Sequence record: NC_048204.1 | Reading direction: 5' to 3' (one strand) | Source of the DNA: Escherichia phage vB_Eco_mar001J1 | DNA: 50,343 nucleotides | Part shown: positions 1 to 50,343 of the stretch, piece by piece | Layout: each line of letters begins with the position of its first letter | Position numbering within the stretch: the stretch's first letter is position 1 | Program-made: the position numbers and the translations under genes | Notes under the pieces: model-generated | The model's input: the letters and a program-made list of their open reading frames with translations, nothing else | Told to the model about the DNA's origin: nothing | Database searches by the model: none

Positions 1-127
1 AAAATTATGTCCAGCAAGTTTTTAGTAGTTCGCGTATATAATCATGACAACGAATCTTCTTCTGAAATCCCGACAATTTATGACAGGGATTTTGGATGGA
101 GTGAGCAATCGGCTGTTGAAAATGAGC
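1..127. repeat. Terminal direct duplication: 1-127 is identical to 50217-50343 (circular permutation or assembly overlap)
   Basis: Exact match of window start and end read directly from the sequence. Confidence 0.9.
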
Positions 128-231
128 GCAAGATTGCAGAACTGTACGGCGACACTTGCAGCATTGAAGTAAGGCAGTACGACGAATCGAACAAGCCAAC
201 AAACGAAACTTATATGTGGCCAGACGCATAA
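7..231 (+). CDS. Hypothetical protein (74 aa); its 5' end is duplicated at 50223-50343
   Basis: ATG with AAGG spacer upstream; cassette promoter 50143-50186 lies upstream across the circular junction. Confidence 0.6.
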   Translation: MSSKFLVVRVYNHDNESSSEIPTIYDRDFGWSEQSAVENERKIAELYGDTCSIEVRQYDESNKPTNETYMWPDA

Positions 232-4697: not shown

Positions 4698-4741
4698 ATT
4701 ATGGCGCAATCCATCGCGCCAGTTTTAACAAAAAGTGCTAT
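4698..4741 (-). promoter_or_regulatory. Cassette promoter candidate (20-mer, hairpin GGCGCGATGGATTGCGCC, CATAAT)
   Basis: Same geometry as other copies; overlaps stop of 4738..5157. Confidence 0.55.
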
Positions 4742-5157
4742 TTAAGCATGTATTCAATAGCCAACTTAAACTGATTGAATCCGTAGGCTACCGCAGCGAA
4801 TCCTCCTAAGCTGCGAACGCGACGCAAAAAAGCCTTTTGTTCATCGCTGACTGGTGATGCTTTCCCCTTGCCTGATTTATTCACTCGTTTGATCTCAATC
4901 GCTGCAAAGGGGTATTTTCCGTTTAAACCAATCAGGATGATGAAATCGCTTACTCCCTTAACCAAGCCGGACTGCTGATCAATCATCGCCGTTGCTTTAG
5001 ACTTCTCATTCTCGTTTACCGTATGCCACGCCAGCAAATAAGGATGAGCATAAGTCAACCACTGAAAACTATCTATCTGGTGATTAACTTCCCTTCTCGT
5101 GTCGGTTGGATCCCTTTCGTAAAACTCAAGATAATCGCCTTTATCAGTTATAGCCAT
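4738..5157 (-). CDS. VRR-NUC domain nuclease
   Basis: PD-(D/E)XK-like segment GVSDFIILIG...AAIEIK in a 139-aa protein. Confidence 0.6.
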   Translation of the reverse strand: MAITDKGDYLEFYERDPTDTRREVNHQIDSFQWLTYAHPYLLAWHTVNENEKSKATAMIDQQSGLVKGVSDFIILIGLNGKYPFAAIEIKRVNKSGKGKASPVSDEQKAFLRRVRSLGGFAAVAYGFNQFKLAIEYMLK

Positions 5158-7154
5158 TAAACAAACTCCCGTTTTGCAATGTTATCCTCACCTTTGCCGT
5201 TTTTGCGATGCGTTACGCGTACAGGAGGCATGATGTGATGAGCGTATGACATTATTTTACGCGCATTTCTATAGCTCGCCACCATACCAGCAATCTTGCG
5301 ATCCGGTATGTGCTGCAATGCTATTTTTCTCCATATCGTCCGGCAAATGTTGCTTTCTGACTCAGGGAAAAATCTTTCGTATGCCTTGAATGTGTCGCCG
5401 TTGGCCTCAAGCTCATAGCAAAAAACAATTCCTTTCTGGTTTTTCGTCATATCAACGCGGAAAGATTTAACGTTGCACCAATCGTTTTTGGTGTAGTGCT
5501 TGCCGCTTAACTTCTCGTTAGGATCGACAAGAGAAATATCGCAACAACGGCATACTCTCGCCACTACGTCGTTTTTTGTTCCGCAACCGCGCTTGATTAT
5601 CTTTTTCGTTCTCGGATCTACATGGTCCTCGCAAATTCTGTAAGTCCAAAAATGCTCGCATCTCTTTCCGTTATCGTCTACGTGCATACATCGGCGAGCG
5701 TAAAAGCTGTTTAGCGTTCCACATATCGGGCAAGTCTTAGGCTCTTTCCCGTTTGTAAATCTCTTTTGAAATTGCGCTTGCTCAAGAATTGGATCGAAAT
5801 ACAAATCCCCTAACTCATCCATAGTACCTGCAAAATCCAATACAAGATGATCTTTTTTCTTGAATCCCTGCTCAATGTGCCATTGCTTAAGCAGTCGCAT
5901 ACCGCGCCCCAAAAGCTGGATAAGCAATGTTAGAGATCCTATCTTTCTCAGTATTACCGAAGTATCCCAAAACGGAACGTTAACGCCAGTGGTAAGCGCC
6001 TGTACCTGGAAGATGTATTTTACTTTTCCCTCGTATGCCTCCCTCAGCCACTCTTTACGCTGATTGTCTCCAGTCTTGCCAGTTATGATCCTGTATTCGA
6101 CGCCTGGCGGAAGTGCGGCGGCGGCCTCCTTGCAGTGTCTTTCCCCTGCGCATGTAACTAAAACTCCGTTCCTGTCTTTGCATATCTCATGGACTTTAGC
6201 CATGATTTTCTGTGTCATTGTTGCGTCTTGATGGATCTTTTCTTCCATCTTGCGCAATGTTTTAGCGTCAAAGTCTGAAACGCCATCCTCGCTACTTGCT
6301 TCGAACTCTGAAAGGTCATACCCCAGGTCGCCTACGTCGCCGAAATTTGTTGGCACTACAGAACCGAATTTGATTAAGTAGTTTGTGTCTATGTTAGTCA
6401 CCTGCTCACGCCAGAATCCCTTTTTGTTCTTATCTTCAACCAGTATTGGAACCACGCCGCGAAACTCAGATCCAGTCATACCGAATATTCGCAATTCGTG
6501 CCCGTATGCCTCGCGACACCTGCGCATCATTTCCATGATTATTACGGTGTACTGTGTGCGCCCTGTTCCGAACATTGGATCGCCATTGGAATCAAATTGC
6601 TGTTCTTCTCCAATCAGTACAGGCAAATCCTTCTTAGTGGTCATCTGCTGGTAAGATTCATTATTTTCTATCGCATCAGCGAGATCCTCCCAATCCACCT
6701 GGTGACATTCATCAATACCGATAACGTGCGGAACATAATCACCTAACGACTTAAACAATCCGTTTACTACAGTGCCCTCAGAACCGACTACGATCGGAAA
6801 GTATGCGCTTTTTGTTTTCAGTCCGGCGCAATAGATTGAGTTTGGCACGCCAAGATTGCTGATCTCTTCCGAATCCTGATCAACAATTTCAGCCTGGCGA
6901 GCAAGGACCATCATTTTCAATCCCATTTTGCGGCATTGCGCAGCAACCATCGCAAACATCAAAGTTTTGCCAGCCGACACAGAAGCCTTAACGAAGAAAG
7001 GATGCTCATATTTTTTCATGCGCTTTGCGATCTCGGCATACGCAACGCACTGATAAGGATAAGGCACTATATTGCCAACCGTGAATCGCTCTTGGATGCT
7101 TTTTATTACTGCCTCGCCTAACGCTGATATTTGTTTTTCGATATTTGGGATCAT
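5157..7154 (-). CDS. SF2 ATP-dependent DNA helicase with C-terminal zinc-ribbon region
   Basis: Walker A SVSAGKTLMFAMVAA, DECH box, C-terminal CPICG...CRCC cysteine cluster. Confidence 0.8.
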   Translation of the reverse strand: MIPNIEKQISALGEAVIKSIQERFTVGNIVPYPYQCVAYAEIAKRMKKYEHPFFVKASVSAGKTLMFAMVAAQCRKMGLKMMVLARQAEIVDQDSEEISNLGVPNSIYCAGLKTKSAYFPIVVGSEGTVVNGLFKSLGDYVPHVIGIDECHQVDWEDLADAIENNESYQQMTTKKDLPVLIGEEQQFDSNGDPMFGTGRTQYTVIIMEMMRRCREAYGHELRIFGMTGSEFRGVVPILVEDKNKKGFWREQVTNIDTNYLIKFGSVVPTNFGDVGDLGYDLSEFEASSEDGVSDFDAKTLRKMEEKIHQDATMTQKIMAKVHEICKDRNGVLVTCAGERHCKEAAAALPPGVEYRIITGKTGDNQRKEWLREAYEGKVKYIFQVQALTTGVNVPFWDTSVILRKIGSLTLLIQLLGRGMRLLKQWHIEQGFKKKDHLVLDFAGTMDELGDLYFDPILEQAQFQKRFTNGKEPKTCPICGTLNSFYARRCMHVDDNGKRCEHFWTYRICEDHVDPRTKKIIKRGCGTKNDVVARVCRCCDISLVDPNEKLSGKHYTKNDWCNVKSFRVDMTKNQKGIVFCYELEANGDTFKAYERFFPESESNICRTIWRKIALQHIPDRKIAGMVASYRNARKIMSYAHHIMPPVRVTHRKNGKGEDNIAKREFV

Positions 7155-7241: not shown

Positions 7242-7718
7242 ATGAAAGATGCACGAATTGCAGTGTCTACGGGTGAGATCGACAAGCGCACTATTAACGG
7301 TAACAACGGAACGCGACGAGGTAAAGACAAAAAGCCACGAAAACACCGAACCGGATTTCTTATCCTGCGAGATGAGGTAAAAGCAAGCCTGAAATCTCGC
7401 CTTGACATTCTGATCGAGTATTACGGCGGTGTTCCTGCTATGGCTCGACGTCTACGCGTATCTCAGCAAGTCGTTAACCAGTGGCGAAAGCGTGGCATGA
7501 TTTCAGCCGCTGGAGCACAAAAGGTGCATAACGACTACAAATATAATGGGTGCAAAGGATACCGCGCATCATTTTGTCGTCCAGATCTGCGGTTTGATTC
7601 TAACGGCAAGCCTCTTACTACCCGTTGCGACAAATACGAAATGTTGCGCGTAGTCAAAAATTCAGACTACGAACCAGGCGGACGATTCTACAAAGGTGAT
7701 AACAGCACGAATAGCTAA
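7242..7718 (+). CDS. Cro/YdaS-family helix-turn-helix DNA-binding protein
   Basis: YGGVPAMARRLRVSQQVVNQWRKRGMIS segment; GAGGTGA RBS. Confidence 0.55.
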   Translation: MKDARIAVSTGEIDKRTINGNNGTRRGKDKKPRKHRTGFLILRDEVKASLKSRLDILIEYYGGVPAMARRLRVSQQVVNQWRKRGMISAAGAQKVHNDYKYNGCKGYRASFCRPDLRFDSNGKPLTTRCDKYEMLRVVKNSDYEPGGRFYKGDNSTNS

Positions 7719-7773: not shown

Positions 7774-8703
7774 ATGAATACTGAAAACTTTATGACCTAT
7801 CAGAAAGAAGATGTTTTGCCATATATGAAGGGGTTATGGCGTGAAGCACTACAAAGCATTTGCGGGCTGCATAGCGATGTTTTCAACAAAAAGCATCAGC
7901 CTTGCCCACACTGCGGCGGTAAGGATCGTTTTAGGTGGACTGATAAGCTAAATGAAGAGGGCGACGGCGGCGCTATCTGCAACGTGTGCGGTAACGACAC
8001 GGGGATCGGTTGGTTAATGAAATTAACTGGCGAACCTTACAGCGAGTCCATCAACATTTTGGGCCGCTTCCTCGGAAAAGTTCCACAGGATTACAGGATC
8101 AGAGCAAACAAACGCGCTTCACGTTCTTCTGGCTACTCGTTCGGGAAACAGGCAAGTCATGAATGCTGCGAAAAAGTGATGGCAAAAACATTAAAATTCG
8201 ATCGCACACCTTTAAGCGTTTTTGAGGGGATATATCCGCCGGAAGGTTGTCATTATGATTGCGGCGTCAATGATGGTCGATACATTCACGCGCTACCTTG
8301 TCACCTGGTGCATGATGACGGGCTTGATGATGAAATGTGTAACGTGCTTTTCATTGATGAGGATGGAAAGGATTGGTTTTTAGCTCGCGACTACACGCGC
8401 GGATCTGTTGTTAAAACAGGTAGCACAGATAAGACGATCTATTTGTGCCTTGATTGGGTTGATTCCCAGCATGTTCATTTATCAACTGGTCAAGAAGTGT
8501 GGGCTTGCTTTACTCCTTCAAATCTTGAAATGGTTGCGCATAGATATAAAGGAGAAAGAAGAATGCGCGTAATCTGCCGGAAAGATGATCGTGATGTGAT
8601 AATCGCGGCAGAGGAAAGAGGTCTTGACATAATGATGCCTGTTAACGATAATTTTAAACAGGGCGTAGAAAGAAAACTCTACAAGCCCGAATCACTGCTA
8701 TAA
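7774..8703 (+). CDS. Primase-like protein with zinc-binding motif
   Basis: CPHCGGKDRFRW...CNVCGN zinc finger; lies next to helicase in the replication region; start at Met27 after terminator. Confidence 0.5.
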   Translation: MNTENFMTYQKEDVLPYMKGLWREALQSICGLHSDVFNKKHQPCPHCGGKDRFRWTDKLNEEGDGGAICNVCGNDTGIGWLMKLTGEPYSESINILGRFLGKVPQDYRIRANKRASRSSGYSFGKQASHECCEKVMAKTLKFDRTPLSVFEGIYPPEGCHYDCGVNDGRYIHALPCHLVHDDGLDDEMCNVLFIDEDGKDWFLARDYTRGSVVKTGSTDKTIYLCLDWVDSQHVHLSTGQEVWACFTPSNLEMVAHRYKGERRMRVICRKDDRDVIIAAEERGLDIMMPVNDNFKQGVERKLYKPESLL

Positions 8704-20924: not shown

Positions 20925-21685
20925 TATTGATTCCTCCGTAGCAGTGACGCCACCGCGCAACCGCCGAAATCCAACTCGTTTTGCTGACCGAATCTCAATT
21001 TGCAAGCCGTTACAGTTCCTGCGCAATAGTCTTGCGATGGATCTGTTACTGGCTTATTGTCTTTATCGAACATTGCCGATCCGTTATAAGAGCAACCCTT
21101 TCCGCTCCTGTACCACCCCCTTTGCGCCCAATAGCAAACGCTTTGAGTGATGCGCGGCGGGATCATCAGTCCATCCATATCGTAAGGCGACGTCAGATCA
21201 AATTTCGCCACCTCTCTATTATACTGGCTTGGGCGCTCAATGTAATAAACCAATTTTCTGTAAGCGCCATCTTTGATTGCCCCGCCTTCTCCGATAAATT
21301 CCTTTGCCGTGATCCAGAAAGTCACCTTTGCTTGCATCATGCCATTGTAATTTCTGATCATGGCGCTAACCCTGCTGTCAAGGTTTGACACTATAAGCTG
21401 AGGCTTATCTGCCCTGCCGTTACTTGTGAAGTTAATCCCGCTCACACCGAAAGGCCGCGCTCCGTAAACCTCACCCTGGAAAATAATATCTTTCGGCGGC
21501 AAGATTCCAGTTTGCTGCGCTTGCATTAATTCTTCGGCAGTATAAGAGATGTTTTCATTGTGAAATCGGTAAATATTTGCTCCGAACTTCGTCCCGTCAA
21601 TCTCTACAAGCGTTATAATTTCGCCTGGGTACAAACTTTGTAGGCAGTTCTCAAACTCAACTCTACCTGATTCTTTATTAGCCAT
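20924..21685 (-). CDS. Minor tail protein L-like
   Basis: Synteny and C-terminal cysteine cluster as in lambda gpL; AGGAGG RBS. Confidence 0.75.
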   Translation of the reverse strand: MANKESGRVEFENCLQSLYPGEIITLVEIDGTKFGANIYRFHNENISYTAEELMQAQQTGILPPKDIIFQGEVYGARPFGVSGINFTSNGRADKPQLIVSNLDSRVSAMIRNYNGMMQAKVTFWITAKEFIGEGGAIKDGAYRKLVYYIERPSQYNREVAKFDLTSPYDMDGLMIPPRITQSVCYWAQRGWYRSGKGCSYNGSAMFDKDNKPVTDPSQDYCAGTVTACKLRFGQQNELDFGGCAVASLLRRNQ

Positions 21686-42397: not shown

Positions 42398-42861
42398 TAT
42401 TGCTCCTCCTCTTTGATGATTTCGCGGATCATATCCTGGTAGCGGCTTACGCCCTCACAAGCCCCAGCCAGCTTATCCCCTTCCAGGTCCACGATATTCG
42501 GGATTGTTGCCAGTAAGCGATCGGCAAGCTTTTTGATCGCCCTTGCCTTGATGGCTGGCAATTCTTCGGGCGTGATGATTTTCCTTTTCGATTCGCGGAC
42601 CATGCGGAAAACGTAAAATTTATCATCTTCCGTTTCCTCTACCTTGATGCTTACCCGACCTGCGGCCCTTACTTCTGGAACGCGGTTGATAATGGTCCGG
42701 CTGTAGGATGAACTGCGCGTGATCTTGTAACAGTCGTCACCGCTTAACATTCCGGCCAGGTCAATTAGTGACATTTTATACTCTTCAATATCGCCACTGG
42801 CCAGGCGGCGACCAAGCTCGCGAAGCCAATCGCAATAGTCCTTAGTGGTCTTCTGTTCCAT
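42397..42861 (-). CDS. Hypothetical protein (154 aa), first gene of the leftward early operon
   Basis: Start at MEQKTTKDY with GGAGG RBS; consensus promoter upstream. Confidence 0.55.
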   Translation of the reverse strand: MEQKTTKDYCDWLRELGRRLASGDIEEYKMSLIDLAGMLSGDDCYKITRSSSYSRTIINRVPEVRAAGRVSIKVEETEDDKFYVFRMVRESKRKIITPEELPAIKARAIKKLADRLLATIPNIVDLEGDKLAGACEGVSRYQDMIREIIKEEEQ

Positions 42862-42892
42862 TTCCTTTCCTCCAGTTGTTGACTGTTGGCGC

Positions 42893-42920
42893 ATTATAAA
42901 AGCTATTTGGTGCGTGTCAA
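42893..42920 (-). promoter_or_regulatory. Consensus sigma70 promoter (TTGACA, 16-bp spacer, TATAAT) for the leftward early operon
   Basis: Both hexamers match consensus exactly, about 30 bp upstream of the 42861 start. Confidence 0.65.
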
Positions 42921-43200
42921 TGTTTTTGTTGTATTCAAAACGTTACCAATATCGAAAAACTACAAAATCATGCGCAAGTTGTTGATTTCAGGGCTGTTAT
43001 TTTTCTGTTCACGCTGTTAACGCAATCCGCCGGAAAAAGTATATATACATATGCAATCCGCCGCGCGCGCAACTATCCATATATGCCCACACACAACCAC
43101 ACCATAGCCAACAAAAAGCACTGTAACAGTGAGAACAAAAAGAAAACATTATAGATATATATAAATAAATAATCTTTATTTTCAATGTATTATAGAGGAT
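42893..43200. repeat. Divergent control region B, homologous to 13757-14070
   Basis: Same ordered blocks as region A, including the AT-rich TATAGATATATATAAATAAATAAT tract. Confidence 0.6.
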
Positions 43201-43408
43201 TTTCTTTGTTTTTTCCGTTTTCGCTACACCGGAAAACCGCGCGGAAACACGCCGCCTGAAATCGGTAACAGGGGTGAACAAAAGACAACAACCACTGACA
43301 GCCAGGCGGAAAAGTGAGGCAAGAGGGGAAGGTTTCACTATCTCCCCTGCAACCAATGATTAAGCGTGATTACTTTTCTCATCAAATTTGCAAAGGCAAT
43401 CATCATTT

Positions 43409-43448
43409 TGACGTGATTTGATTACGAATGATTACTTCTGATTATTTC
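43409..43448. repeat. Tandem 10-bp direct repeats TGATTAC(N3), iteron-like
   Basis: TGATTACGAA, TGATTACTTC, TGATTATTTC in register, partial copy upstream and another GTGATTAC at 43365. Confidence 0.5.
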
Positions 43449-43475
43449 GATCACAATCCTGGCGCTAACCGTCAA

Positions 43476-43519
43476 ATAGCACTTTTTGTTAAAACTCAGG
43501 CCGTCTGATCGGGTACATT
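43476..43519 (+). promoter_or_regulatory. Cassette promoter candidate for the rightward early operon (20-mer, TACATT, TCGAAACGAA leader)
   Basis: 22 bp between TTGTTA and TACATT. Confidence 0.55.
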
Positions 43520-43553
43520 ACACACATCGAAACGAACCGCTCAGGAGATAGCA

Positions 43554-43826
43554 ATGAACATCAGCAAAACCACTTTCAACTTCTCTAAGCGTCACGGTCT
43601 GGATCTGACTGTTGAAGATTTTGGCGATGTTCTGCAACTCTGCATTTGGGAAGCAGATAACGATTGCGAGTGGCTTTGCTCTTATCGTATCAACTACGAT
43701 TGCTTGACCTGGCACGGCAATATCTATCTGCCGCAAGAAGTGAAGGAAGAATTGCCAGCGACTATCAACAACGAGGTTTTCTTGCGTCAGGTGCTGAAAT
43801 TTATCAGTGAGGAGATCAAGAAGTAA
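43554..43826 (+). CDS. Hypothetical protein (90 aa)
   Basis: GGAG RBS. Confidence 0.55.
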   Translation: MNISKTTFNFSKRHGLDLTVEDFGDVLQLCIWEADNDCEWLCSYRINYDCLTWHGNIYLPQEVKEELPATINNEVFLRQVLKFISEEIKK

Positions 43827-47776: not shown

Positions 47777-47984
47777 ATATCGCTATAAGGTTACTAATTC
47801 AGCAACAAAAACCTTCAAGCCTGGCGATATAGTCAGGCCCATCAAAAAAACTGCGGTAGGTTGGCTGATTGGTTTTTCATATCATAAGGCGCTTTACTTT
47901 ACGTTTAAGGATGGGATTGCAGGAGAATGCTACAGCGACAGCCAGCCTGATCGACTTCTGGTTGCAATAGAGCGGATCAAATAG
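47763..47984 (+). CDS. Hypothetical protein (73 aa)
   Basis: Start at MIKTEYRYK overlapping the HNH gene stop. Confidence 0.45.
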   Translation: MIKTEYRYKVTNSATKTFKPGDIVRPIKKTAVGWLIGFSYHKALYFTFKDGIAGECYSDSQPDRLLVAIERIK

Positions 47985-48024
47985 CACTTTTTGACAAAAC
48001 GGGGTAGTATTGGGCAGTTAAAAT
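47981..48024 (+). promoter_or_regulatory. Cassette promoter variant (ATAGCACTTTTTGACAAAAC, TAAAAT)
   Basis: TTGACA replaces TTGTTA; same 22-bp spacing. Confidence 0.5.
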
Positions 48025-48052
48025 TTACGGCCCACAAAGGAGAAGCTAACGA

Positions 48053-49633
48053 ATGTTTTCATTAGAAACGAACAAATTAACTCCACAGCAAATAATCGCT
48101 ATGGCTGAAAGCCAGAACCTTTCGCCAGTTCGCGTATCAATTCAGGCTAACGGCTATCGCCAGTCGTCAAGCTTTTGGGGCGACGTGAAGGATGTAAATA
48201 GCGGTCACGATCGCTACCCCGTAATTTCTCTTGGTAATGATATTGATGTTGTCGGCAAGTTATCACGCAGTATTGCGCGATCAGTTCAATTCCCTGAATC
48301 ATCGGCTTACATGCACTTTATCGGCTGCATTTCTGCCTCTATGCTTGGACGCTTTACAGTTGACTATCACGGAACCGATCAGCCGACTGCGCTTTACGTC
48401 GTTACAAGCCAGCCGCCGTCAACTGGTAAATCTGCGATCAACAGTATGGCTATTGCTCCGATGATTGCGGAAGTTGAGAAGATCAACGAGCAACGCCGCA
48501 AGGAAAGAAAGAAAATACAGGCAAAGTTGGCAGGTCTTGCAAAGGAGATGAAAAGCGAAAGATCAGGCGCTGATATGGAATCTCTATACCAGGAAAAAGA
48601 GGATCTGGAGGAGAAGCTGGAAAAGATGTGTGATATAACTTTCCCTGTTTCAGATACCACTCCAGAAGGATTGGCGAAAATCAACAACAAGCAAGGTAAC
48701 TTTGCCGTAATATCTGACGAAGCAACAAGTATTAACAGCCTGTTAGGCTTGACCTATGCCAATAGCGAAAGGAAGACTAACAGCGAGCTAGTGCTTAAGG
48801 CGTGGGATAATGGTCACGTATCAATTGCCCGTGCTAATGCTGACAATAACATGAGTTTTCGCGCGCTTGGATGTATGAGCGTTATAGCCCAGGATGAAAC
48901 GATAAGCGGAATCATGGACGCTGGATCGCGCGGTATCGGTGTGAGTGAGCGCTTTTTGTTGGTCCGCGAAGAATCATTCTTAGGCCGTCGCTCATTCATT
49001 GATGAAAATGGTGATTCTACCTATGAGGCGGTGGATTCTGAATTGAAAGCCCAATATTATCAATTGGTGCATAACATCATGAGCGAATCAAATATATCGC
49101 TGAAAATAAGCCGTTCAGCTATGCGAGTGCTCAACATTGCTCGTCAGGATATGGAACCGCATCTTGCAGACGGCGGAAAGTATTCTCATACAATGTTGCG
49201 CGGTGCGCTGGGTAAAATGGATAAACAGGTGATCAGGCTTGCTTCCGTCCTGCATGTTATCCGTAACTGGTTTAATCCTGCCGGATACCCGCAGAAGTCG
49301 AAAGAGATCGGCGTGGAAACAATGCAAGAGGCGTTGATAATGTTTCAGGAATTGAGCAAAACATACATTAGCGCCGCCAATGCTTCTGGTTATGCTGGTG
49401 ATGATGCTGAAATGGGTAAATTGATTGAATTGATCACGAGGCACGGCAAGGCTAACAAAGGGATCCTGAATATTCGCGCCCTGTACGAATCAGCGAGAAA
49501 GGTAAAACCTTTCGTTGGTCAGGCTGGCGTAATGAAGAGGATAGAAGGGCACTTGCTGCCAATGCTGGAAGAAAGAAATTATGTTTGTGTGATTAATGGT
49601 GTTATTTTTGTCAATCCAATACTGCTGGGATGA
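48053..49633 (+). CDS. P-loop NTPase of unknown role (possibly replication-associated)
   Basis: Walker A-like SQPPSTGKSA and Walker B-like AVISDEAT; 526 aa; central coiled-coil. Confidence 0.4.
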   Translation: MFSLETNKLTPQQIIAMAESQNLSPVRVSIQANGYRQSSSFWGDVKDVNSGHDRYPVISLGNDIDVVGKLSRSIARSVQFPESSAYMHFIGCISASMLGRFTVDYHGTDQPTALYVVTSQPPSTGKSAINSMAIAPMIAEVEKINEQRRKERKKIQAKLAGLAKEMKSERSGADMESLYQEKEDLEEKLEKMCDITFPVSDTTPEGLAKINNKQGNFAVISDEATSINSLLGLTYANSERKTNSELVLKAWDNGHVSIARANADNNMSFRALGCMSVIAQDETISGIMDAGSRGIGVSERFLLVREESFLGRRSFIDENGDSTYEAVDSELKAQYYQLVHNIMSESNISLKISRSAMRVLNIARQDMEPHLADGGKYSHTMLRGALGKMDKQVIRLASVLHVIRNWFNPAGYPQKSKEIGVETMQEALIMFQELSKTYISAANASGYAGDDAEMGKLIELITRHGKANKGILNIRALYESARKVKPFVGQAGVMKRIEGHLLPMLEERNYVCVINGVIFVNPILLG

Positions 49634-50025
49634 TTATGTTTTTGCTTGATCTGTATAAATGGTGTGAGTCATACGACTGGTTTAACAGGCAGCACATAGC
49701 CAAATTTATCTATAAGCATAGAGAATGTGAGCGGCTCGCACGGGCCGCCGGACTTACGCCGCGAATGTTCGCCAGCCTTACATCTAAGGAATTTTGCGCA
49801 AGAATGATGACGGCTGGCTATATAGATGGGGTCTGCGGTAAATACTGGTCCAAAGGATCGTCAAAGCGGCCTTTCGGATTCGAGTTGTATAGCTTGGATG
49901 GTATGCGCAACGACTGGATCAGGGATATGGCTAGAATAGGGGAGATGGGCGATGATGAATTGTTCCAGGCAAAAGCTAATAGACAAGTTCTTGAAGCACT
50001 GCGCCGTAAATTCAATATCACATGA
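49630..50025 (+). CDS. Hypothetical protein (131 aa)
   Basis: ATGA overlap with upstream gene. Confidence 0.5.
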   Translation: MIMFLLDLYKWCESYDWFNRQHIAKFIYKHRECERLARAAGLTPRMFASLTSKEFCARMMTAGYIDGVCGKYWSKGSSKRPFGFELYSLDGMRNDWIRDMARIGEMGDDELFQAKANRQVLEALRRKFNIT

Positions 50026-50186: not shown

Positions 50187-50343
50187 TGTTTCATCGAAAC
50201 GAAACAACCAAAAGGTAAAATTATGTCCAGCAAGTTTTTAGTAGTTCGCGTATATAATCATGACAACGAATCTTCTTCTGAAATCCCGACAATTTATGAC
50301 AGGGATTTTGGATGGAGTGAGCAATCGGCTGTTGAAAATGAGC

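What the first reader, a model, noticed from the sequence alone, without database searches (positions are those of the whole stretch)
48053..49633. Large early P-loop NTPase of unknown function
A 526-aa protein with Walker A-like (SQPPSTGKSA) and Walker B-like (AVISDEAT) motifs and a central coiled-coil is the largest gene of the rightward early block and has its own cassette promoter (variant with TTGACA). It does not look like the helicase or the terminase already present; it may be a replication initiator/loader or a host-takeover ATPase.
Basis: inference. Interest (0 to 1): 0.45.

Follow-up and report, generated by a model that had tools for sequence, protein, structure and literature searches.

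The report
MCM-like DUF3987 helicase of T1-like phage
The 526-aa "unknown P-loop NTPase" is the phage's DUF3987-family helicase, a distant relative of the MCM ring helicases that most likely unwinds phage DNA during replication; public databases already label it a DNA helicase, so the finding is real but ordinary.

Summary
The ORF (48053-49633, +, 526 aa), its Walker A and B motifs and a helical insert between them are all present. The window is the complete genome of Escherichia phage vB_Eco_mar001J1, a T1-like phage, and this gene is gp52, which RefSeq calls "DNA helicase".

- **Family:** full-length match to Pfam DUF3987 (E = 1.4e-43) and phrog_2373 "DNA helicase" (E = 7e-243).
- **Conservation:** K126, E223, R260, Q280, R300 and K388 are essentially invariant across 145 diverse family sequences.
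- **Association:** relatives are fused to DnaG-type or AEP primases or to the DnaB N-terminal domain. In distant phages the gene sits beside a primase and an SF2 helicase.
- **Literature:** the family was predicted to be a replicative SF6 helicase in 2016. One member (AgaPH) was shown in 2025 to be a 5'->3' helicase.

The phage has no DNA polymerase and no recognisable loader. Most likely gp52 is the fork helicase, working with the phage primase and host Pol III.

The upstream "cassette promoter" is one of 16 copies of a repeat already reported in phage TLS. Its promoter function is unproven.

Novelty is low.

The parts
47980..47999 (+). Conserved 20-nt box AATAGCACTTTTTGACAAAA, the TTGACA variant (TTGACA at 47991-47996). 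It overlaps the TAG stop codon of the upstream gene gp51 (47982-47984).
   Evidence: one of 16 copies genome-wide (expected 0.02). The same repeat is described in phage TLS as aaATAGCACnnnTTGnTAAAA (PMC11447400).
48019..48024 (+). -10-like hexamer TAAAAT, 22 nt downstream of the TTGACA hexamer. The other four copies in the rightward block have the same 22-nt spacing.
   Evidence: Read directly. Not called by the sigma-70 consensus scan. Function unproven.
48037..48042 (+). Shine-Dalgarno-like AAGGAG, 10 nt before the ATG.
   Evidence: Sequence.
48053..49633 (+). gp52 coding sequence, 526 aa: DUF3987-family, MCM-like AAA+ helicase.
48053..48352 (+). N-terminal alpha-helical region (aa 1-100). 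There is no OB fold or zinc domain like that of MCM.
   Evidence: DSSP of the AF2 model. Most of it (from about aa 62) is retained as the linker in the primase fusion P0156.
48407..48436 (+). Walker A / P-loop, SQPPSTGKSA (aa 119-128).
48434..48625 (+). Charged antiparallel helical hairpin inserted after the P-loop (aa 128-191).
   Evidence: H126-168, H172-191; high pLDDT; the insert is present family-wide, 33-94 aa.
48704..48727 (+). Walker B strand, AVISDEAT (aa 218-225). E223 is invariant.
48806..48871 (+). Beta-hairpin (aa 252-273) with invariant R260 at its tip, just before the sensor-1 strand. It is a candidate pre-sensor-1 DNA-contacting hairpin.
   Evidence: DSSP E252-258 and E267-279. 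R260 is present in 145/145 sequences and the hairpin length is fixed at about 21 residues. The assignment is an inference; pLDDT here is only 54-69.
48878..48898 (+). Sensor-1 strand SVIAQDE (aa 276-282). Q280 is invariant.
   Evidence: The resemblance to the MCM sensor-1 strand is from my own knowledge.
48938..48964 (+). GVSERFLLV (aa 296-304). R300 is a candidate arginine finger, resembling the MCM 'SRF' motif.
   Evidence: R300 is present in 142/142 ungapped sequences. The motif analogy is an inference.
49037..49387 (+). Alpha-helical lid region (aa 329-445) with near-invariant K388 and conserved R383, which are candidate sensor-2 residues.
49400..49630 (+). C-terminal winged-helix domain (aa 450-526).
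49630..50025 (+). gp53, 131 aa. Its start overlaps the gp52 stop (ATGA). It is a winged-helix protein found only in T1-like phages and may be an accessory factor.
7774..8703 (+). gp67 primase, with a T7 gp4-type zinc ribbon and no helicase domain. It is the presumed partner of gp52.
5157..7154 (-). gp65, the phage's second helicase (SF2; ResIII plus Helicase_C). It is followed by a VRR-NUC nuclease gene (4738-5157).

Best explanation
gp52 is the phage-encoded replicative DNA helicase of this T1-like phage. It is an AAA+ ATPase of the DUF3987 family, a divergent MCM-like (SF6) lineage.

**Shown here**
- It belongs to DUF3987.
- It has an MCM-like AAA+ fold and a C-terminal winged helix.
- Its catalytic residues are intact and conserved.
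- The family is fused to, or encoded next to, primases.

**Inferred mechanism**
- It assembles into a ring, probably a hexamer, around single-stranded DNA.
- ATP is bound by the P-loop (K126/S127) and hydrolysed using E223. R300 from the neighbouring subunit acts as the arginine finger.
- The beta-hairpin carrying invariant R260 pulls DNA through the central pore and so unwinds the fork.
- It works with the separately encoded T7-type zinc-ribbon primase gp67 and phage SSB, and it recruits the host DNA polymerase III, because the phage has no polymerase of its own.
- The C-terminal winged helix, the N-terminal helical region and possibly the coupled winged-helix protein gp53 would mediate loading at an origin or contacts with partners.

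The only polarity measured in the family is 5'->3', for the distant member AgaPH. It is unknown for this protein.
For: **Family membership.** Pfam DUF3987 at 149.9 bits against a cut-off of 27, covering aa 81-430. phrog_2373 'DNA helicase' at E = 7e-243 over the full length. RefSeq product 'DNA helicase'.

**Conserved residues.** K126, E223, R260, Q280, R300 and K388 are essentially invariant across 145 sequences.

**Fusions.** Homologs at 30-34% identity are fused to a DnaG-type CHC2 zinc finger (P0156), to DnaB_N (P0189), and to the AEP-type domains BT4734-like_N and NrS-1 pol HBD.

**Gene context.** Relatives at 35-39% identity head contiguous modules of DUF3987, DnaG-type primase, SF2 helicase, exonuclease, recombinase and SSB.

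**Distribution.** Full-length copies occur in 910 phage records. The host-genus counts parallel those of the primase.

**Need for a helicase.** The genome has no DNA polymerase and no DnaC-like loader. Its primase lacks a helicase domain.

**Literature.** DUF3987 was classified as an SF6 replicative helicase with a C-terminal wHTH (PMC4889955). AgaPH, a PriCT-DUF3987 protein, is a Walker A/B-dependent, ATP/dATP-driven 5'->3' helicase that binds its primase-polymerase (PMC11724360).
Against: - No experiment exists on this protein or on any T1-like ortholog in the literature I could search.
- In this phage the gene is not next to the primase. By the circular map it lies about 8.4 kb away, across the lysis cassette.
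- The phage has a second helicase (SF2, gp65). The TLS re-annotation paper treats that one, with the primase, as the replication pair.
- The link to MCM is visible only at the fold level. There is no Pfam MCM hit for any of 35 members and no PDB sequence hit even with a profile. Global TM-scores are low, at 0.31-0.36.
- Ring formation, DNA binding and polarity are all inferred.
- From memory only: classical work on T1 reported a need for host elongation dna genes. I could not retrieve that paper. If host DnaB is required, the fork-helicase role would be weakened.
Confidence: 0.7

Rival explanations
1. gp52 is an initiator-helicase that loads itself. It recognises the phage origin through its winged-helix and/or N-terminal domain, possibly with the translationally coupled winged-helix protein gp53. 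It then melts the origin and becomes the fork helicase, as SaPI Rep, P4 alpha or viral SF3 initiators do. This extends the best explanation rather than excluding it.
For: - No initiator or loader is recognisable in the genome.
- gp52 has a C-terminal winged helix.
- gp53 has a winged-helix fold, and its start overlaps the gp52 stop codon.
- In distant relatives the gene lies directly beside a 450-620 bp divergent intergenic region.
Against: - No origin is known, and no iterons lie next to the gene here.
- Winged helices in MCM and cullins often mediate protein contacts rather than DNA binding.
- gp53 is restricted to T1-like phages, so it cannot be a general partner of the family.
Confidence: 0.3
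2. gp52 is a recombination or repair motor: a branch-migration or fork-restart translocase like ComM, RuvB or MCM8/9. It would support recombination-dependent replication and concatemer formation, while the host DnaB or the SF2 helicase gp65 drives the fork.
For: - ComM and MCM8/9 are among the structural neighbours.
- The phage carries a rich recombination set: Erf, exonuclease VIII, SSB and VRR-NUC.
- The gene is separated from the primase in this genome.
Against: - The family's fusions are to primases and to the primase-binding domain DnaB_N, not to recombinases.
- The SF2 helicase gene, not gp52, is the one paired with the VRR-NUC nuclease gene.
- AgaPH binds a primase-polymerase.
Confidence: 0.12
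3. gp52 is a helicase loader or adaptor that recruits the host DnaB, as lambda P or DnaC do, and does not unwind DNA itself.
For: - DnaC-type loaders are also AAA+ proteins.
- The phage depends on host replication proteins because it has no polymerase.
Against: - The structural neighbours are MCM-clade motors, not the DnaA/DnaC initiator clade.
- The candidate pore-hairpin arginine and the arginine finger are invariant.
- A family member unwinds DNA by itself.
- A homolog carries DnaB's own N-terminal domain in place of the N-terminus, so the module substitutes for the DnaB motor.
Confidence: 0.06
4. gp52 is a host-takeover or anti-defence ATPase unrelated to replication.
For: Only its position in a block of small, mostly uncharacterised genes that are presumed to be early.
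Against: - No PADLOC match.
- All homology, fusion and gene-context evidence points to replication.
Confidence: 0.02

Closest known systems
AgaPH, the PriCT-DUF3987 helicase of a Seonamhaeicola mobile element (PMC11724360)
   Same: Both contain the Pfam DUF3987 domain with Walker A and B motifs and a small C-terminal domain. Both are functionally associated with a primase. AgaPH is the only family member with published biochemistry: an oligomeric, ATP/dATP-dependent 5'->3' helicase.
   Different: AgaPH has an N-terminal PriCT domain and partners with an AEP primase-polymerase encoded next to it. gp52 has a different helical N-terminus, and its partner is a DnaG/T7-type primase encoded elsewhere in the genome.
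MCM helicases (SF6; archaeal MCM and eukaryotic MCM2-7, MCM8/9)
   Different: There is no detectable sequence match to Pfam MCM. gp52 lacks the N-terminal OB-fold/zinc domain, and no helix-2 insert is evident. It has a 64-residue helical hairpin after the P-loop that MCM lacks. MCM translocates 3'->5', whereas the one DUF3987 helicase tested runs 5'->3'.
Cch, the MCM-like DUF927 helicase of staphylococcal SCCmec elements (PDB 5dgk)
   Different: Cch belongs to a different Pfam family (DUF927) and is much less similar to gp52 than MCM itself is.
T7 gp4 and bacterial DnaB (SF4)
   Same: They are the likely functional equivalents: a ring helicase working with a zinc-ribbon/TOPRIM primase. Relatives of gp52 are fused to a DnaG-type primase, as in the gp4 architecture, or to the DnaB N-terminal domain. 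The phage primase gp67 has the gp4-type zinc ribbon.
   Different: The motor fold is different: RecA-type in gp4 and DnaB, AAA+ in gp52. gp52 has no Pfam DnaB_C match, and its best structural neighbours are AAA+ proteins.
Phage N4 dns protein (per PMC4889955)
   Same: It is reported to contain a DUF3987 helicase domain and to be essential for N4 DNA replication.
   Different: [quoted passage not shown] I did not examine it here.

Membership tests
DUF3987 (Pfam PF13148) helicase family | Match to the family HMM above the curated gathering score | tested here: met
   149.9 bits against a cut-off of 27, E = 1.4e-43, aa 81-430 matching profile positions 3-350 of 364. All 35 aligned homologs also match.
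DUF3987 (Pfam PF13148) helicase family | Conserved Walker A lysine and Walker B glutamate, both required for AgaPH helicase activity | tested here: met
   K126 is in 141/141 and E223 in 144/144 ungapped family sequences. This protein has the canonical GKS and DE.
DUF3987 (Pfam PF13148) helicase family | [quoted passage not shown] 2016) | tested here: met
DUF3987 (Pfam PF13148) helicase family | Association with a DnaG or AEP primase, by fusion or by adjacent gene | tested here: inconclusive
   A primase is encoded in the genome but about 8.4 kb away, not adjacent. Homologs are fused to primases or encoded next to them. The host distributions of the two genes are parallel.
DUF3987 (Pfam PF13148) helicase family | ATP-dependent DNA unwinding by an oligomer | not testable with these tools
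   This needs biochemistry. It has been shown only for AgaPH.
MCM family proper (Pfam PF00493, SF6 in the strict sense) | Sequence match to the MCM AAA+ domain model | tested here: not met
   No PF00493 hit for any of 35 members even at E <= 5. No MCM chain is found by profile hmmsearch of the PDB. The published link is by HHsearch for another member.
MCM family proper (Pfam PF00493, SF6 in the strict sense) | MCM-type AAA+ fold | tested here: met
MCM family proper (Pfam PF00493, SF6 in the strict sense) | N-terminal OB-fold/zinc-binding domain that forms the N-tier ring | tested here: not met
   Residues 1-100 are predicted to be all-helical, with no cysteine cluster.
MCM family proper (Pfam PF00493, SF6 in the strict sense) | Pre-sensor-1 beta-hairpin and helix-2 insert hairpin | tested here: inconclusive
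   A hairpin (aa 252-273, with invariant R260) lies directly before the sensor-1 strand, consistent with a pre-sensor-1 hairpin. No hairpin interrupts helix 204-214, so a helix-2 insert is not evident.
DnaB/T7 gp4 (SF4, RecA-fold ring helicases) | RecA-type core with DnaB_C motifs | tested here: not met
   No Pfam DnaB_C match. The best structural neighbours are AAA+ proteins.
DnaC/IstB-type helicase loaders (AAA+ initiator clade) | Sequence or fold match to DnaC/IstB/DnaA-type AAA+ proteins | tested here: not met

The most novel reading that the evidence does not exclude
gp52, perhaps with the translationally coupled winged-helix protein gp53, is a self-loading initiator-helicase. It would be an MCM-like AAA+ ring that finds and melts the T1-type origin without a separate loader, runs 5'->3' (the opposite of MCM), and couples a DnaG/T7-type primase to the host Pol III holoenzyme. 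That would make T1-like phages a simple model of a hybrid replisome, with an archaeal/eukaryotic-type helicase and a bacterial polymerase.
Probability: 0.2. Interest if true: 0.5.

Novelty: already known. Interest (0 to 1): 0.2.

Why it matters
There are four modest reasons.

1. T1-like phages (Drexlerviridae) are very common coliphages and Klebsiella phages that are used in therapy and in defence-system screens. Even so, the T1-type ortholog (T1p09-like) is still labelled hypothetical, and the 2024 TLS re-annotation does not list this gene among the replication proteins. Naming it clearly as the likely fork helicase improves annotation.
2. The search of PDB sequences found no solved relative of the DUF3987 family, and only one member has been studied biochemically.
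3. An MCM-like motor reported to run 5'->3', working with a bacterial-type primase and the host Pol III, is mechanistically interesting.
4. Replication proteins are frequent triggers or targets of anti-phage defence, so knowing this protein's identity helps interpret escape mutants.

Tried and rejected
- **PDB by sequence.** The single sequence and the family profile gave only coiled-coil noise and no solved relative.
- **NCBIfam** and **PADLOC** gave no hits.
- **Pfam at permissive E-values** on 35 members, looking for MCM or other AAA+ models, gave none.
- **Second homolog search** with an alignment added almost no diversity because the word index saturates. The exhaustive HMM search supplied the diversity instead.
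- **Sigma-70 promoter scan** called no promoter upstream of the gene, so I did not accept the 'promoter' label.
- **Flanking small ORFs.** The small upstream ORF (gp51) is not convincingly conserved in distant relatives (24-29% identity). gp53 does not match the ORF that follows the gene in one distant relative, L005.
- **gp31 'ATP-binding protein' as a DnaC-like loader.** It has only a weak kinase-type AAA_18 match.
- **Literature.** I searched for experimental work on this gene in T1-like phages, for defence-escape mutants and for T1's host dna-gene requirements and found nothing usable. The Kazlauskas 2016 supplements are not held.

Full report
**Identity of the window and the ORF.** The window is 100% identical to Escherichia phage vB_Eco_mar001J1 (LR027388.1 / NC_048206.1; Drexlerviridae, Tempevirinae, Warwickvirus), a T1-like siphovirus. 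It is the whole 50,343-bp record, re-linearised. The gene is HOV63_gp52. GenBank calls it 'hypothetical protein', and RefSeq calls it 'DNA helicase'.

**Checking the observation.**
- The Walker A-like SQPPSTGKSA is residues 119-128, and the Walker B-like AVISDEAT is residues 218-225.
- In alignments reaching 33% identity, Q120-P-P-x-x-G125-K126-S127 and S221/E223 are invariant.
- In an alignment of this protein with 144 cluster representatives from an exhaustive profile search, K126 (141/141 ungapped), E223 (144/144), R260 (145/145), Q280 (142/143), R300 (142/142) and K388 (141/142) are essentially invariant. The Walker B aspartate is often A or S in other members (D 55, A 51, S 31). This protein has the canonical D-E.
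- The 'central coiled-coil' is a confidently predicted antiparallel helical hairpin (H126-168 and H172-191) that begins at the end of the P-loop. It is not special to this phage. The distance from K126 to the invariant T203-P-E motif has a median of 77 residues across the family (range 33-94) and is exactly 77 here.
- The gene is the largest of the rightward block.

**The 'cassette promoter'.**
- The motif is real. AATAGCACTTTTTGTTAAAA occurs five times in the rightward block. Each copy is followed by 22 variable nucleotides, often hairpin-forming, and then a TAnAnT-like hexamer.
- The copy at 47980, 73 nt before the ATG, is the only one of the five with TTGACA.
- Genome-wide there are 16 copies within three mismatches, against 0.02 expected. 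Most are oriented with local transcription. Three variants read as a perfect TAGCA-N5-TGCTA palindrome.
- The same repeat, aaATAGCACnnnTTGnTAAAA, has been described at 21 sites in phage TLS and noted in T1, Rtp and Rogue1. Its function is unknown; stoperator-like, enhancer-site and UP-element-like roles were suggested (PMC11447400).
- A 22-nt spacing is not canonical for sigma-70, and the consensus scan called no promoter here. The sequence observation therefore stands, but 'promoter' and 'early' remain inferences.

**Family placement.**
- Pfam gives DUF3987 (PF13148) at E = 1.4e-43 over residues 81-430. PHROGs gives phrog_2373 'DNA helicase' at E = 7e-243 over the full length, and phrog_7327 over residues 441-525.
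- NCBIfam and PADLOC have nothing.
- The exhaustive search found 6,470 cluster representatives at E <= 0.001 and 434 at E <= 1e-30.
- tblastn found the gene in 924 phage records, full-length in 910. These are overwhelmingly T1-like phages of Klebsiella, Escherichia, Salmonella and Shigella, including Tunavirus members at 58% identity. In Shfl1 the ortholog is 'similar to T1p09' and still hypothetical.

**Literature.**
- Kazlauskas et al. 2016 used profile-profile comparison to place phage DUF3987 proteins in SF6, distantly related to MCM. They noted a C-terminal winged helix and frequent association with DnaG or AEP primases, and concluded that these proteins act as replicative helicases. They state that the essential N4 dns protein contains this domain (PMC4889955).
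- Kazlauskas et al. 2018 list DUF3987 among the ATPase domains that replace MCM, RepA or DnaB in primase fusions (PMC5862659).
- In 2025 a PriCT-DUF3987 protein, AgaPH, was purified. [quoted passage not shown] It uses ATP or dATP and needs its Walker A and B residues (PMC11724360).

**Structure.**
- An AlphaFold2 model built on a 35-sequence alignment is confident (mean pLDDT 87.4, pTM 0.85). The weaker region is residues 230-270.
- The Foldseek top 50 are all MCM2-7 subunits, at modest E-values (2e-5 to 4e-3) and low global TM-scores of 0.31-0.36.
- At the sequence level the link is invisible. No MCM Pfam hit appears for any of 35 members, and no PDB hit appears even with a family profile. 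No solved structure of the family was therefore detectable.
- Reading the motifs on the predicted secondary structure gives candidate assignments. The hairpin 252-273 with invariant R260 lies directly before the strand SVIAQDE, which resembles the MCM sensor-1 strand. GVSERFLLV resembles the MCM SRF arginine-finger motif. These are inferences.
- Two MCM features are missing. The N-terminus is helical rather than an OB/zinc domain, and no helix-2 insert is evident.

**Association evidence.**
- Homologs of the whole module are fused to a DnaG-type CHC2 zinc finger (P0156; 34% identity over 475 residues, E = 2e-85) and to the primase-binding N-terminal domain of DnaB (P0189; 30% over 458 residues, E = 4e-66). 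Others are fused to the AEP-type domains BT4734-like_N and NrS-1 polymerase HBD. The DnaB_N fusion suggests that this module can stand in for the DnaB motor.
- In three metagenomic phage contigs at 35-39% identity, and in Klebsiella phage ZC2, the gene heads or adjoins a compact module containing an SF2 helicase, a DUF3799 exonuclease, a recombinase and SSB. A DnaG-type primase is recognisable in all but one of them.
- The window phage has the same set, but dispersed: gp52; the primase gp67 at 7774-8703, which has a T7 gp4-type zinc ribbon and no helicase domain; the SF2 helicase gp65 at 5157-7154; SSB; Erf; and exonuclease VIII.
- The primase has nearly the same host-genus distribution as gp52.
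- There is no DNA polymerase gene. The TLS paper says the same for T1 and TLS.
- No DnaC-like loader is recognisable. The 'ATP-binding protein' gp31 has only a weak kinase-type match.
- The SF2 helicase gene is followed directly by a VRR-NUC nuclease gene. I read this as favouring a recombination or fork-processing role for that helicase, leaving gp52 as the fork helicase. That reading is an inference.

**Conclusion.** It is not an orphan, though. It is a typical stand-alone member of the DUF3987 family of MCM-like helicases and is already labelled as a helicase in RefSeq and PHROGs. The most likely mechanism is a ring helicase at the phage replication fork that cooperates with the phage primase and the host Pol III (confidence about 0.7). 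A self-loading initiator role is an open extension of that. A recombination motor, a DnaB loader and a host-takeover ATPase are progressively less likely.

**What remains untested:** oligomeric state, polarity, the loading mechanism, and which of the two phage helicases drives the fork.

Noticed in passing
window 1-127 and 50217-50343: The first and last 127 bases of the window are identical. The GenBank record has the same 127-bp overlap at its own ends, which correspond to window 21242-21368. This looks like the k=127 overlap an assembler leaves on a circular contig (the source paper mentions SPAdes). The unique genome would then be 50,216 bp, and gp54 (window 7-231) is partly duplicated at the window end.
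   Followed up: yes
window, 16 sites: 3652, 4723, 7212, 8774, 34051, 38862, 41659, 42122 on the - strand; 14152, 25470, 29222, 43475, 44779, 46988, 47980, 50142 on the + strand: The 20-nt box AATAGCACTTTTTGTTAAAA occurs 16 times against 0.02 expected, mostly oriented with local transcription. Three variants (8774, 14152, 34051) form a perfect TAGCA-N5-TGCTA palindrome, which suggests a site for a dimeric DNA-binding protein. With the -10-like hexamer 22 nt downstream, the palindrome centre would lie near -42. The repeat is already reported for TLS, T1, Rtp and Rogue1 (PMC11447400), with its function unknown. The Cro/YdaS-like gp66 (7242-7718) is an untested candidate binder.
   Followed up: partly
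window 49630-50025: The start of gp53 ('YdbL' in some records; phrog_2794, unknown function) overlaps the helicase stop codon (ATGA). Its homologs were found only in T1-like phages, and it is predicted to be a winged-helix protein with extra C-terminal helices.
   Followed up: yes
window 42861-43554: This 693-bp gene-free divergent region lies between the leftward and rightward blocks. It has an AT-rich core (25-29% GC at 43100-43250) with TATATATA palindromes, several TGATTA repeats at 43352-43447, and GCAATCCGCCG twice at 43022 and 43053. It is a candidate control region or replication origin. This is untested.
   Followed up: partly
window 4738-7154 (- strand): The SF2 helicase gene gp65 (ResIII plus Helicase_C) is immediately followed by a VRR-NUC nuclease gene, gp64. 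The pairing suggests a branch-migration and resolution or fork-processing module.
   Followed up: partly
window 7774-8703: The primase gp67 has the T7 gp4-type zinc ribbon (PF08273). It matches only positions 7-316 of the 667-position phrog_510 profile, apparently its primase half. It therefore looks like a gp4-type primase that lacks, or never had, the helicase half.
   Followed up: partly
phage collection hits H9-H15 and H19 (e.g. MG065685.1, MG065641.1): About 20 unannotated records named 'Campylobacter phage' with host C. jejuni are 81-88% identical to this coliphage region. For T1-like enterobacterial phages that host label looks doubtful and may reflect contamination or mislabelling.
   Followed up: no
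gp52 residue 222 (window 48716-48718), family-wide: Across the DUF3987 family the Walker B aspartate is not conserved (D 55, A 51, S 31 of 145), whereas the following glutamate is invariant and the preceding serine (S221) nearly so. This is an unusual Walker B for an AAA+ family. It raises the question of what coordinates Mg2+ in the members that lack the aspartate.
   Followed up: partly
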